Below, piece after piece: positions 1 to 2,202 of a stretch of DNA of 2,202 bases (within the stretch, counting starts at the first letter, position 1; each line of letters starts with the position of its first letter). The translations under genes and the position numbers were made by a program. The notes under the pieces are model-generated. The model did not search any database and had not been told where the DNA came from. It worked only from the letters and a program-made list of their open reading frames with translations. The stretch lies in NCBI GenBank assembly GCA_000004985.1, contig GG739278.1; one strand, written 5' to 3'. Source of the stretch: Naegleria gruberi (Eukaryota).

Positions 1-484
1 ATGCCAAAAGTATATAGCCAAACTTCTTGAAACATTAATAAACTGTTATTAGTATTATTGTAGATGGTACCATATCAAATATTTCGTTTTATTTCGATGA
101 GATCATAAAGATCTTAAATTTCTCTCAAAACATGCAAGTTCTCAGCCTAACCAGATGTTCACCAAGTCAAAACATCAAAATAATAAATTTCATTGTACTT
201 TTGTATCACACATTAATTTATTGTGTAAAATTCATTGAATTGGAGATTTTAATTTTTTAAAAACTAATCTGTGATTATTTACCAATTAAATATACTTCTT
301 TAATACTTGATAATTCATAAAATCCTAGTAGATATTGAATAGGTTCATAAAACAAGATATTACACATAACGGCTCTAAATTCATGCTAATAGAGCTTGTT
401 TAATGAGACTTATCATTTTAATGATAATTCCTACCTTAACAGATAAGTTTTGTCAAATTGGATTCTATTTGTGCAAGGTCTAAT

Positions 485-518
485 TCCATCCCTAATATAG
501 CAGACTTTTAGGGATGGA
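485..518. repeat. Perfect 11-bp inverted repeat (TCCATCCCTAA ... TTAGGGATGGA) flanking a 12-bp spacer (TATAGCAGACTT). It is a candidate recombinase core site or a palindromic telobox-like (ATCCCTAA/TTAGGGAT) regulatory element.
   Basis: Read directly. Positions 485-495 are the exact reverse complement of 508-518, and the flanking bases 484/519 do not extend the pairing. The repeat sits 105 bp upstream of the in-frame ATG at 623 and about 180 bp upstream of the open recombinase frame. Confidence 0.7.
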
Positions 519-724
519 TAATTTTAATAGAATCTATCCTAGAAGTATTTTTCGCCTGGAAGGTTCATACCAACGAATTTAACTGCCTGGGTCTTCATGC
601 GAGTTTTTATCGCGTATAACAGATGACCCTTATGCTATTGAGTATTATGCAGCTTATCTTACAATTCAAGGTCAAACATCTCGTGTTGAAGCCTTGAGAC
701 CATCCCTTCAATTTTGGGCCAATA

Positions 725-1429
725 TTGAGAGAAGAGTTTTTCCAATTTCATGGTCATGATAAGATTAAAAGAGGAATTACTCTTATTTGGTCCTTGATTG
801 ATAGAAAAGCTTTGAAACGTGATCCAATTTTCTATCATCATATTGAAGGTTTCATTCAGAGAAAAGATCATTATGATCCTTTCATTTTCAAACTCACTAG
901 TGCCATGTTAGTCATTGGTTTCAGACTTTTCGCTAGACCAGGTGAATTAGCTAGACTCAAGTGGGGTTATGTTACAAAGCTTAGAAATGGTAACATCAAA
1001 TTAGATCTCAGTGGTCACAAAACAGATTTCTTTCTACTAGAAAAGCCGATTACTATTGACAAGCATCTTGAAAATCCTTCAGTGTGTCCAGTGAAATTGC
1101 TTTTTGATTACATGAACACTGTACAGCATTTCAAAAAAGCAGATTCACCATTGTTTTCATTGCAGGACAATATTTTCTTCAACACTGAAGATGTTTCTCA
1201 ACTTATCAAGAATGCTATGTTCTCTGTTGATTCAGAAATCACTGTTTCTGGTCACAGTTTACGTATTGGTGCAACTACTGAGAGTATTATCAAGGGAATT
1301 CCTACTCAGGATATTATTATGGGGACTAGACATAAGGATGTGAAATCTTTACAACCTTATCAAAGACAAGAAGCTCTTGCCGCTCGCCACTTGTCTACTA
1401 CTCTCCTTTCTCGGGACAATATCCATTAG
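725..1429 (+). CDS. Tyrosine (site-specific) recombinase, Cre/XerD/phage-integrase-type catalytic domain with a complete R-K-HxxR-H-Y set. The frame is open from 698 and ends at TAG 1427..1429. Position 725 is a TTG and is only the track's nominal start. The first ATG in the open frame is at 905, and the ATG at 623 is in frame but separated by a TGA at 695.
   Basis: Direct translation gives DPFIFKLTSAMLVIGFRLFARPGELARLKWGYV, which aligns with Cre 'NLAFLGIAYNTLLRIAEIARIRVKDI' and XerD 'GLRVSEL' box I (R codon 935..937). 'SGHKTD' matches Cre 'IGRTKT' (K codon 1019..1021). 'SGHSLRIGATT' matches Cre 'SGHSARVGAAR', i.e. box II HxxR (H 1253, R 1262). 'GTRHKDVKSLQPY' carries the His (1331) and the Tyr nucleophile (1358) with the canonical 9-residue spacing. 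The 705-nt stop-free frame lies in roughly 65-70% AT DNA, and codon usage (AGA, GGT, TTG, CCA, no CTG) is consistent across the ORF. Confidence 0.85.
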   Translation: MREEFFQFHGHDKIKRGITLIWSLIDRKALKRDPIFYHHIEGFIQRKDHYDPFIFKLTSAMLVIGFRLFARPGELARLKWGYVTKLRNGNIKLDLSGHKTDFFLLEKPITIDKHLENPSVCPVKLLFDYMNTVQHFKKADSPLFSLQDNIFFNTEDVSQLIKNAMFSVDSEITVSGHSLRIGATTESIIKGIPTQDIIMGTRHKDVKSLQPYQRQEALAARHLSTTLLSRDNIH

Positions 1430-1656
1430 TTTATTTATTGTTGGTTTTCTTTTAAGAAACATGTTCTTATCGAAGTTTACTGAGATAAAGTAGTGTTTCT
1501 TGAAAACAACAATTGAATAAACTAATAATAGAAAGTATGCTCAAAAAAATTGTCATACTATGGTCCCACCCTTGCCCACCCTCTATTATTATTAGTTTAT
1601 TCACAGCATGTGTCGCCATCAAGTATTTAATTTTTGTCTTTTCGCAAAGGGTGCTG

Positions 1657-1765
1657 TATTTTAAAAAAATGATGCAACAACACGCACACAACATCCACCT
1701 CCCACAAACTACATCCCACAACATGACTTCAACACTAACAACAAACAAATAATCAAACATCAACA
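1657..1765 (+). promoter_or_regulatory. Putative promoter and 5' leader for the downstream gene. It has a TATA-like TATTTTAAAAAAA at 1657-1669, an A/C-rich pyrimidine-poor leader at 1675-1765, and an A at -3 in the 'caacaATGa' start context.
   Basis: The A/C-rich, G-poor tract 'caacaacacgcacacaacatccacctcccacaaactacatcccacaacatgacttcaacactaacaacaaacaaataatcaaacatcaaca' directly precedes ATG 1766. Such leaders are typical of expressed budding-yeast genes, and the TATA-like element is about 110 bp upstream of the ATG. Confidence 0.35.
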
Positions 1766-1850
1766 ATGAGCATTCCACATATGTTTAAATGGAATTGGAA
1801 GAAGTCTTCTGATATTACCGCTATCAAGAAGAAGAAACCAACAAAACGTG
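1766..1850 (+). CDS. Hypothetical protein, putative exon 1 (MSIPHMFKWNWKKSSDITAIKKKKPTKR + 1 nt). It is followed by a GTAGGT donor at 1851. Alternative reading: an unspliced 31-codon ORF 1766..1861 ending at TAG.
   Basis: ATG 1766 is in good context after the A/C-rich leader. The basic K-rich peptide is followed by GTAGGT. Splicing 1850 to 1943 keeps the reading frame open into the ORF at 1943+. Confidence 0.3.
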
Positions 1851-1942
1851 GTAGGTTGTAGTTTTGTATAATAATTAATTAAATAATTAATTAATCGGAT
1901 AAGTGAACATTGTTAACAACCAGAGAGATAATATAATTCTAG
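1851..1942 (+). other. Putative 92-nt intron (GTAGGT...TAG) containing a perfect tandem 12-mer.
   Basis: The donor GTAGGT is non-canonical for yeast, which is a weakness. The intron is very AT-rich and contains (ATAATTAATTAA)x2. Removing it preserves the reading frame. Confidence 0.25.
1871..1894. repeat. Perfect tandem duplication of the 12-mer ATAATTAATTAA (x2), internally palindromic (TTAATTAA).
   Basis: Read directly: 1871-1882 is identical to 1883-1894. Confidence 0.7.
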
Positions 1943-2077
1943 ATATGGATGACACTTTAAATACAATGCCAAACGAAGGAACTATTCAACATTGGCCACT
2001 TACTTCCAATCAAGCCTCCAATTTTTCATTACCAACCATTAATTTTGTACCATTGGAAGAACCAACACAAAATGAAA
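1943..2077 (+). CDS. Hypothetical protein, putative exon 2 (…D MDDTLNTMPNEGTIQHWPLTSNQASNFSLPTINFVPLEEPTQNE + 1 nt). It ends at a canonical yeast 5' splice site GTATGT (2078-2083), and the gene continues beyond the window.
   Basis: The tag|AT acceptor at 1940-1942 restores the frame from exon 1 (phase 1). Of the two AG candidates in the interval, 1923 and 1942, only 1942 is in phase. The open frame runs to the GTATGT donor, and a second donor-like GTAAGT lies at 2158-2163. The window ends in ...aatgtag, which is acceptor-like. Confidence 0.3.
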
Positions 2078-2170
2078 GTATGTTTCATAATACTTAATAT
2101 TTAAATATTTGAAAGCCTTTTCATATTTGGCTCTTCTTACACAACCCTCTCCTCCAAGTAAGTATTTCTT

Positions 2171-2198
2171 ATTTAAATTTAAATTTATAATTTATAAT
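2171..2198. repeat. AT-only low-complexity micro-tandem (ATTTAA x2 followed by TTTATAA x2) in putative intronic sequence.
   Basis: Read directly at the window end. Confidence 0.5.
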
Positions 2199-2202
2199 GT
2201 AG

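What the first reader, a model, noticed from the sequence alone, without database searches (positions are those of the whole stretch)
440..760. Recombinase N-terminus is missing or scrambled: no ATG, an in-frame TGA, and staggered overlapping open stretches in all three forward frames
In the recombinase frame, the sequence is stop-free from 698 but contains no ATG until 905 (the M of 'TSAMLVIGF', at the very start of the catalytic domain). An ATG at 623 is in the same frame, but the only stop between it and 1429 is a single TGA at 695-697. Further upstream, the same frame is open from 440 to 616 with no Met: QISFVKLDSICARSNSIPNIADFRGWIILIESILEVFFAWKVHTNEFNCLGLHASFYRV. Frame +1 is open and protein-like from 583 to 757 (LPGSSCEFLSRITDDPYAIEYYAAYLTIQGQTSRVEALRPSLQFWANIERRVFPISWS). 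Frame +3 is open from 543 to 623. With AT content near 70%, a stop is expected about every 12 codons, so several 55-60-codon open stretches stacked end-to-end on one strand are unlikely by chance. They suggest an originally longer ORF, i.e. an N-terminal core-binding domain, now broken by indels. A T5 homopolymer at 737-741 lies inside the frame +1/+2 overlap. Deleting one T would join ...FWANIERRV to FQFHGHDKIKRG... . The frame +1 stretch also ends in TCA TGA T (754-760), which superficially resembles the UCN-UGA-U context of antizyme-type +1 shifts. Explanations to separate are homopolymer sequencing error, a genuine decaying pseudogene, a catalytic-domain-only protein starting at ATG 905, programmed +1 frameshifting or stop readthrough, or a non-standard code (TGA=Cys as in Euplotes, or TGA=Trp). 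I consider the alternative code unlikely, because no other in-frame TGA occurs in 234 codons and Trp is encoded by TGG.
Basis: seen in the sequence. Interest (0 to 1): 0.6.

Follow-up and report, generated by a model that had tools for sequence, protein, structure and literature searches.

The report
Broken retrotransposon recombinase gene fragment
The odd pattern of reading frames is a dead 944-base fragment of a known kind of mobile element (a DIRS-type retrotransposon of the amoeba Naegleria gruberi): its recombinase gene has lost its start and carries a 2-base deletion, so the finding is ordinary.

Summary
The window is a complete 2,202-bp unplaced scaffold of Naegleria gruberi NEG-M. Its one annotated gene (XP_002668142.1, 174 aa) is the ATG-905 ORF.

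- **What is there.** Bases 622-1565 are 98.5% identical to the 3' part of a 4-kb gag-pol(RT/RNase H/Dam-like MT)-tyrosine recombinase retrotransposon (contig L007). Homology ends sharply on both sides.
- **The frame pattern.** The recombinase is read in frame +1 from 622 to 755 and in frame +2 from 756. The cause is the loss of 'TT' between 755 and 756 (intact TGG TCT TAT GAT; window TGG TC. .AT GAT). Restoring TT gives 269 residues, 100% identical to residues 58-326 of intact N. gruberi paralog XP_002669634.1.
- **What is missing.** The first 57 codons of that model (32 from the family's own ATG, including helix 1 of the N-terminal domain) and all of gag and pol are absent.
The upstream 'open stretches' are chance-level flank. 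The in-frame TGA at 695 and the ATG at 623 lie in the wrong frame. The T5 run is not the lesion.
- **Rivals.** Twelve full-length relatives are uninterrupted across the site, so programmed frameshifting, readthrough and an alternative code are rejected.
- **Open point.** Whether the TT loss and the junctions are biological or low-coverage assembly errors cannot be decided here.

DIRS-like copies with frameshifts in N. gruberi are already published.

The parts
1..621 (.). Unrelated 5' flank (AT-rich).
   Evidence: No blastn, tblastn, tblastx or HMM similarity to any part of the element family. The open stretches are at chance level. TAG at 509-511.
622..755 (+). Recombinase coding remnant in frame +1. 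It corresponds to residues 58-102 of the intact 326-aa paralogs (helices 2-3 of the N-terminal domain).
   Evidence: 100% amino-acid identity to P0001 and P0015 residues 58-102. 100% nucleotide identity to L007 3246-3379. Helices taken from the AlphaFold model.
755..756 (+). Frameshift lesion: 'TT' is missing between C755 and A756 (intact TGG TCT TAT GAT). The coding frame moves from +1 to +2 and creates the apparent TCA TGA.
   Evidence: blastn alignment to L007. Re-inserting TT gives a protein 100% identical to P0015 residues 58-326. All 12 aligned relatives are continuous here.
758..1429 (+). Recombinase coding remnant in frame +2, residues 104-326 plus the TAG stop. It covers helix 4 of the N-terminal domain and the whole catalytic domain: R163, K191, H269-x-x-R272, H295 and Y304 in P0001 numbering.
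   Evidence: tblastn 99% to P0001. Invariant columns in the family alignment. Profile match to Cre over the HxxR...W...Y region. Foldseek match to Cre, E = 1.5e-8.
905..1429 (+). The database gene model on this scaffold (XP_002668142.1 / NAEGRDRAFT_76947, 174 aa). It is an annotation artefact that starts at the first ATG after the lesion.
   Evidence: P0017 is identical to the translation of 905-1426, and its only contig is 2,202 bp long. M at this position is I in most relatives.
1430..1461 (+). Post-recombinase spacer of the element. It is partly complementary to the element's 5'-terminal repeat.
   Evidence: 99% identical to L007 4047-4078. Inverted repeat 1425-1449 / 1502-1526, also present in L007.
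1462..1565 (+). Second copy of the element's 5'-terminal sequence (head-to-tail junction), including the gag ATG at 1560. Homology ends at 1565.
   Evidence: 98% identical to both L007 61-164 and L007 4079-4182. L007 has a direct repeat 61-306 / 4079-4324.
1566..2202 (.). Unrelated 3' flank. It contains a 17-nt perfect inverted match (1587-1603) to 1514-1530 and a possible intron-containing gene start from 1766.
   Evidence: No similarity to the element apart from the 17-mer. The intron reading is my own inspection and is not verified.

Best explanation
Window bases 622-1565 are a non-functional fragment of a DIRS-order (tyrosine-recombinase) retrotransposon of Naegleria gruberi.

Intact members of this roughly 4-kb family encode a gag-like protein, a pol (reverse transcriptase, RNase H, Dam-like methyltransferase) and a two-domain Cre-like recombinase of about 300 aa.

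In this copy:
- Everything 5' of recombinase codon 58 is missing. [quoted passage not shown] It has been replaced by unrelated AT-rich sequence.
- A 2-nt loss (TT between 755 and 756) moves the remaining ORF from frame +1 to frame +2.

This alone produces the 'staggered frames', the apparent in-frame TGA and the lack of an ATG before 905. The other open stretches upstream are chance. Nothing here is translated into a working recombinase, and the annotated 174-aa protein is a gene-model artefact.

Shown: the homology boundaries, the position of the lesion, the intact ancestral frame and the architecture of the family. Inferred: that the copy is biologically dead rather than mis-sequenced.
For: -: all homologs come from Naegleria or are unnamed environmental sequences, and full-length ones are 297-353 aa.
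- P0001 residues 58-102 match window 622-756 in frame +1 at 100%, and residues 103-326 match 755-1426 in frame +2 at 99%. There is no match to residues 1-57.
- window 622-1565 matches L007 3246-4182 at 98.5% nucleotide identity with sharp ends. The TT gap lies between 755 and 756.
- the TT-repaired translation is identical to P0015 residues 58-326.
- the family alignment is continuous and conserved (S-Y/F-x-K/R-V/I/L-K-K/R-G) across the site.
- relatives carry pol (RVT_1 E = 2e-23 to 3e-26, weak RNase H, sub-threshold Dam) immediately upstream of the recombinase.
- no pol, gag or recombinase N-terminus anywhere in 1-621.
- the two-domain model best matches Cre.
- Piednoel et al. 2011 list 7 DIRS1-like copies in N. 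gruberi 'with too many frameshifts or indels'.
- 89 DIRS-class RepeatMasker hits in N. lovaniensis.
Against: - The fragment is almost mutation-free apart from the TT loss: its repaired translation is 100% identical to that of an intact paralog. That is unusual for an old pseudogene, so the event is either very recent or technical.
- The window is a whole 2.2-kb scaffold, probably built from few reads. The TT loss and one or both junctions (621/622, 1565/1566) could therefore be sequencing or assembly errors.
- I could not obtain the nucleotide sequence of the N. gruberi paralog loci or any reads.
Confidence: 0.85

Rival explanations
1. Sequencing or assembly artefact. The real genomic copy is intact (for example the locus encoding XP_002669634.1). 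The 2-nt loss and/or the abrupt junctions arise from a low-coverage, possibly chimeric, 2.2-kb leftover scaffold.
For: - The window is the entire scaffold (the only contig of P0017 is 2,202 bp).
- The repaired protein is 100% identical to P0015.
- Both homology ends are knife-sharp with no target-site duplication.
Against: - A second truncated 174-aa model starting at the same Met (P0016, 8-kb scaffold, with 2 different residues) exists. This is compatible with broken copies being real in this genome, although its locus could not be read.
- Fragmented DIRS-like copies in N. gruberi are reported independently.
- Losing two bases outside a homopolymer is not a typical Sanger error (general knowledge).
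Confidence: 0.12
2. Programmed +1 ribosomal frameshifting at TCA TGA T (antizyme or RF2 type), or stop-codon readthrough, yields a full recombinase.
For: A +1 slip at TCA_TGA would give ...FPISWS-DKIKRG..., which lacks only Tyr103. The stop-in-A-site context resembles known +1 sites (from the sequence and general knowledge).
Against: - None of the 12 aligned full-length relatives, nor the 99%-identical L007, has a shift site. The intact sequence is TCT TAT GAT.
- The lost residue is a conserved Y/F.
- Frame +1 has no ATG between the TAA at 580 and 756, and the N-terminal 57 codons are absent, so nothing could initiate.
Confidence: 0.01
3. A genuine catalytic-domain-only recombinase starting at Met-905, as annotated (XP_002668142.1).
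For: ORF 905-1429 keeps all the catalytic residues R, K, HxxR, H and Y. Two N. gruberi gene models have this form.
Against: - The Met is not a conserved start: it is Ile in most relatives and internal in all full-length ones.
- 283 nt of perfectly conserved coding sequence lie upstream of it, in two frames.
- Tyrosine recombinases of this fold need the N-terminal domain to clamp DNA (general knowledge of Cre).
- There is no evidence of a promoter or a transcript.
Confidence: 0.02
4. A non-standard genetic code (TGA = Trp or Cys) makes ATG 623...1429 one ORF.
For: TGA 695-697 is the only stop in that frame.
Against: - Between 622 and 755 the true coding frame is +1, not +2, as shown by 100% identity to paralog proteins and to L007.
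- The frame +2 peptide MTLMLLSIMQ... has no homolog in the search.
- In this family the ORFs end in TAA or TAG where read, and TGA ends pol in L001 and at the annotated coordinates in L002 and L004.
Confidence: 0.005

Closest known systems
DIRS1-like retrotransposons (type element DIRS-1 of Dictyostelium discoideum; Piednoel et al. 2011, PMC3266345)
   Same: In the close relative L007 and in four more distant ones:
- A gag-like ORF, a pol with RT, RNase H and a Dam-like MT, and a Cre-like tyrosine recombinase.
- The recombinase reading frame stays open for 348 to about 600 codons back across pol. This is the 'long ORF overlap' that the paper describes for half of DIRS1-like elements.
- The presence of such elements in N. 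gruberi, with frameshifts, is already reported.
   Different: - No inverted terminal repeats were found in L007 or in the window.
- Instead, the element's 5' end is repeated directly after the recombinase (L007 61-306 = 4079-4324), and the spacer after the recombinase is complementary to that repeat.
- The window copy itself has no RT, MT or gag.
PAT-like / Ngaro elements (DIRS order, split direct repeats)
   Same: The order pol then recombinase on one strand, and a direct repeat of the 5' terminus placed after the recombinase (A1 ... B1-A2), both resemble the split-direct-repeat layout. The MT domain fits PAT rather than Ngaro.
   Different: - A matching B2 copy of B1 was not found. Only an 11-nt core, ATTAGTTTATT, recurs at 1590.
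- In L007 the repeat runs on into gag for at least 246 nt, which looks more like a tandem copy.
- The termini were not defined from several copies.
Cre recombinase of phage P1 (tyrosine recombinase fold)
   Same: - The best structural match runs over the full length (Foldseek E = 1.5e-8, about 315 columns).
- The profile matches the HxxR...W...Y segment (E = 2e-4).
- Both have a helical N-terminal domain followed by a catalytic domain.
   Different: - About 15% sequence identity.
- His replaces Trp at the fifth catalytic position in this subfamily.
- The protein is part of a retroelement, not a phage.
- The window copy lacks helix 1 and is frameshifted.
Cryptons (eukaryotic DNA transposons that encode only a tyrosine recombinase)
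   Same: A recombinase ORF without an adjacent RT is what the window shows at first sight.
   Different: The 99%-identical copy L007, and every relative with enough flank, has RT immediately upstream. The solo state here is due to truncation.

Membership tests
Tyrosine recombinase (Cre/integrase fold, Pfam PF00589) | Catalytic residues R, K, H-x-x-R, H/W and the nucleophile Y, in order | tested here: met
   R163, K191, H269 and R272 are invariant. Y304 is present in all non-truncated members, with H295 or W nine residues before it. All are encoded in window 758-1426.
Tyrosine recombinase (Cre/integrase fold, Pfam PF00589) | Sequence match above Pfam's curated threshold | tested here: not met
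   22.7 bits against a cut-off of 27.1 for the window ORF, and 21.6 bits for P0015. The family profile does hit Cre and XerA in the PDB at E = 2e-4 to 8e-4.
Tyrosine recombinase (Cre/integrase fold, Pfam PF00589) | Two-domain fold: an N-terminal helical core-binding domain plus the catalytic domain | tested here: met
   AlphaFold model of intact paralog P0001 (mean pLDDT 67, N-terminal helices at 83-93). The top 29 Foldseek hits are Cre or its engineered variant Tre, E down to 1.5e-8. The window encodes only helices 2-4 of the N-terminal domain.
DIRS-order retrotransposon | Reverse transcriptase / RNase H encoded in the same element as the recombinase | tested here: met
   Met for the family: L007 (99% nucleotide identity to the window fragment), L002, L004 and L005 have RVT_1 at E = 2e-23 to 3e-26 directly upstream. 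Absent from the window itself, so the window is a fragment, not an element.
DIRS1-like / PAT-like (as opposed to Ngaro / VIPER) | Methyltransferase (Dam-like) domain at the C-terminus of pol | tested here: inconclusive
   PF05869 hits at the right place in four relatives, all below the cut-off (19.6-24.8 bits against 28.1; E = 2e-5 to 8e-4).
DIRS1-like | Inverted terminal repeats plus internal complementary regions | tested here: inconclusive
   No ITRs in L007, L002, L004 or the window. The post-recombinase spacer is complementary to the 5'-terminal repeat (25 nt at 80%; the hairpins fold with z = -6.3). The contigs may not reach the true termini.
PAT-like / Ngaro | Split direct repeats A1 ... 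B1-A2-B2 | tested here: inconclusive
   A1/A2 are present (L007 61-306 / 4079-4324; window 1462-1565). No convincing B2 was found.
Programmed +1 frameshift site | Shift site and two-frame arrangement conserved in homologs | tested here: not met
   All relatives are single-frame across the site. The intact sequence is TCT TAT GAT.

The most novel reading that the evidence does not exclude
The element family behind the fragment may not be the degenerate relic described for N. gruberi. It may be an intact, recently active heterolobosean lineage of DIRS-order elements with an unusual end structure. In that structure the 5' terminus is repeated head-to-tail right after the recombinase, the spacer between them is complementary to that terminus, and there are no ITRs. 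This would be a hybrid of the DIRS1 (ICR) and PAT (split direct repeat) designs. The window would then preserve one such junction (1430-1565), plus a 17-nt perfect inverted match (1587-1603) that L007 lacks.
Probability: 0.15. Interest if true: 0.3.

Novelty: already known. Interest (0 to 1): 0.1.

Why it matters
It matters little biologically. This is a truncated, frameshifted transposon fragment in a genome where such copies have been reported.

Practical value:
- It shows that the RefSeq protein XP_002668142.1 (and probably XP_002668384.1) is a gene-model artefact of a broken retrotransposon ORF.
- It gives the exact lesion and the homology boundaries.
- It identifies a complete, apparently intact reference copy (ENA contig L007) and two intact N. 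gruberi recombinase paralogs. These could be used to annotate this family in Naegleria genomes.

Tried and rejected
- **Exact-protein look-ups.** Look-ups for the N. gruberi loci (P0001, P0002, the window ORF from ATG 905 and from TTG 725) were not on record. The paralog DNA could therefore not be read. ENA contig L007 substituted for it.
- **Metagenome scan.** A JGI metagenome scan with P0001 found no relatives.
- **Search for the missing N-terminus.** I ran tblastn with P0001, then an HMM of the family's first 37 positions against the six frames of 1-660. This gave only non-significant scraps (FNRIY, LIPSLI*QTFR; E of about 0.5 to 5 in a search space of 1,316 residues). They were rejected as chance.
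- **Search for pol or gag remnants in the flanks.** tblastn, tblastx and blastn found nothing.
- **Intron hypothesis.** I considered an intron ending at the 'aacag' at 618-622. It was rejected because no upstream exon exists within the window.
- **Search for a left ITR.** No left ITR in 1-621 pairs with the region after the recombinase. An internally deleted element is therefore unlikely.
- **The T5 run.** The T5 run at 737-741 as the lesion was rejected. The window is identical to L007 there, and frame +1 stays homologous up to 755.
- **Crypton.** Rejected because RT lies upstream in all relatives.
- **Other scans.** tRNA and Rfam scans of the window found nothing. Pfam found nothing on the putative downstream peptide.

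Full report
**Observation**

I translated all three forward frames and listed every stop between 430 and 770.
- Frame +2 is open from 698 to 1426, and its first ATG is at 905.
- ATG 623 is in that frame and is separated from it only by TGA 695-697.
- Frame +1 is open from 583 to 756.
- Frame +3 is open from 543 to 623.
- A T5 run lies at 737-741.

One claim is wrong. Frame +2 is not open from 440 to 616, because TAG 509-511 was read as Arg.

The upstream stretches are not surprising. In 5000 shuffles of 381-621, the longest open stretch reached the observed 35 codons 71% of the time. Six-frame tests on both flanks were also unremarkable.

**Origin of the window**

A protein search with a frame +1/+2 concatenate returned only Naegleria proteins and unnamed environmental relatives. 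The 90% cluster of the best hit contains a 174-aa N. gruberi NEG-M protein, XP_002668142.1 / NAEGRDRAFT_76947. Its only contig is 2,202 bp long, and it is identical to the translation of window 905-1426. The window is therefore that entire scaffold, and the public annotation is the 'Met-905' short protein.

The same cluster holds three further members.
- Two intact 326-aa paralogs on large scaffolds (XP_002679188.1 = P0001 and XP_002669634.1 = P0015).
- A second 174-aa model on an 8-kb scaffold (P0016).
- A 297-aa protein from an ENA metagenome contig (P0018).

**The lesion**

- tblastn places P0001 residues 58-102 on window 622-756 in frame +1 at 100% identity. It places residues 103-326 on 755-1426 in frame +2 at 99%. 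Nothing in the window matches residues 1-57.
- The ENA contig (L007, 4,324 bp) supplied DNA. Window 622-1565 aligns to L007 3246-4182 at 98.5% identity with abrupt ends. L007 reads TGGTCTTATGAT where the window reads TGGTC--ATGAT.
- Re-inserting TT between 755 and 756 gives 269 residues identical to P0015 residues 58-326.
- In the alignment of 12 family members, every sequence that covers the site (the truncated P0012 and P0013 do not) is continuous across it, with a conserved I/V-S/P/N/A-x-S-Y/F-x-K/R/Q-V/I/L-K/V/N-K/R-G motif. Frame +1 is therefore correct up to 755, and the T5 run at 737-741 is not involved.
- The 'TCA TGA T' context, the TGA at 695 and the ATG at 623 are all out-of-frame by-products.

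**What the gene is**

Family ORFs score just below Pfam's Phage_integrase cut-off. Other evidence places them in the tyrosine recombinases.
- The family profile hits Cre and XerA in the PDB.
- The invariant columns include R163, K191, H269-x-x-R272 and Y304.
- An AlphaFold model of P0001 has mean pLDDT 67, with 83-93 in the N-terminal helices. It shows four N-terminal helices (33-52, 62-72, 76-92, 103-118) followed by the catalytic domain.
- Its top 29 Foldseek matches in the PDB are Cre or its variant Tre over about 315 columns, with E down to 1.5e-8.

The window therefore lacks helix 1 and the start codon, and it is frameshifted at the first residue of helix 4.

**What the element is**

Every relative for which flanking DNA could be read has a pol ORF directly upstream of the recombinase.
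- In L001, L002, L004/L005 and L006 the pol stop and the recombinase start overlap by 4 nt. This is read as ATGA in L001 and inferred from the coordinates in the others. In L007 the ATG lies 3 nt after the pol stop.
- Pol carries RVT_1 (E = 2e-23 to 3e-26), a weak RNase H-like match and a sub-threshold Dam-like methyltransferase match at its C-terminus. L007 also has a 372-aa gag-like ORF.
- The recombinase frame stays open for 348 to about 600 codons back across pol.

That long pol/recombinase overlap, the RT-RH-MT pol and the recombinase are the published hallmarks of DIRS1-like elements (Piednoel et al. 2011, PMC3266345). [quoted passage not shown] DIRS-class repeats are also tabulated for N. 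lovaniensis.

**The flanks**

- Window 1-621 has no detectable similarity to pol, gag, the recombinase N-terminus or any other part of six related loci. No left ITR pairs with the 3' region.
- On the 3' side, homology runs past the stop codon through a 32-nt spacer (1430-1461). It then continues into a copy of the element's own 5' end: 1462-1565 matches L007 61-164 at 98%, including the gag ATG at 1560. It stops at 1565.
- L007 shows the same head-to-tail junction and continues into gag, with a direct repeat 61-306 / 4079-4324 at 97%.
- The window fragment is thus truncated on both sides relative to L007.

**Mechanism and rivals**

The best explanation is a dead fragment of a DIRS-order retrotransposon. 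It is 5'-truncated inside the recombinase ORF and carries a 2-nt deletion (confidence 0.85).

The main caveat is technical. The scaffold is tiny, and the fragment is otherwise identical at protein level to an intact paralog. The TT loss and/or the junctions could therefore be assembly errors (0.12), and I had no reads to test this.

- **Programmed +1 frameshifting** is excluded in practice. The site is absent from all relatives, the lost Tyr/Phe is conserved, and frame +1 has no start codon.
- **The catalytic-domain-only protein** rests only on the first available ATG, which is Ile in most relatives.
- **An alternative code** is refuted by the frame assignment.

**Novelty**

None of substance. 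The kind of element, its presence in this species and its broken state are all published, and the protein is in RefSeq. The only open curiosity is the end structure of this Naegleria family (a direct repeat plus a complementary spacer, with no ITRs seen). I could not resolve it with the few contigs available.

Noticed in passing
window 1425-1603: Two adjacent imperfect palindromes lie directly after the recombinase stop (1430-1521 and 1514-1603). As single-stranded DNA they fold with z = -6.3 against shuffles. The motif ATTAGTTTATT occurs at 1425 (+), 1514-1526 (-) and 1590 (+). The 17-nt arm at 1587-1603 is a perfect inverted copy of 1514-1530, yet it lies outside the region homologous to L007. 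It may be an ICR or terminus-like pairing of the element.
   Followed up: partly
L007 61-306 and 4079-4324 (also window 1462-1565): The closest complete element has its 5' end, including the start of gag, repeated head-to-tail right after the recombinase (97% identity, spacing 4,018 bp). This could be a tandem copy, a split direct repeat or a circle-junction-like arrangement. Two A2-specific base variants are shared by the window and the 3' copy in L007.
   Followed up: partly
L001 18-1712; L002 1004-3721; L004 1033-3645; L005 158-2461; L006 325-2706; L007 about 2109-4046: In all relatives the recombinase reading frame (pol frame minus 1) stays stop-free for 348 to about 600 codons upstream of its ATG, across most of pol. 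This matches the 'long ORF overlap' described for DIRS1-like elements. I did not test whether the extension is translated.
   Followed up: partly
window 1766-2202: A possible start of a separate intron-containing gene. It begins at ATG 1766 with GT-AG introns at 1851-1942, 2078-2115 and 2158-2202, giving MSIPHMFKWNWKKSSDITAIKKKKPTKRDMDDTLNTMPNEG.... It is preceded by a CA-rich tract at 1680-1765. There is no Pfam hit, and the open stretches here are not above chance.
   Followed up: partly
P0001 / P0015 (N. gruberi XP_002679188.1, XP_002669634.1) and L007: Two N. gruberi copies keep an intact 326-aa recombinase ORF. An environmental contig 99% identical to the window over their shared 944-nt segment keeps gag, pol and the recombinase open. 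The family may therefore be recently active, unlike the 'too many frameshifts' description in the 2011 survey.
   Followed up: no
L004 3640-3740: In this more distant relative the recombinase ORF is cut short after HSLRIGAT. About 20 nt later there is what looks like the start of another gag-like ORF (MSNKLAPSASVDDISDSDSS...). This suggests nested or tandem insertions of these elements.
   Followed up: no
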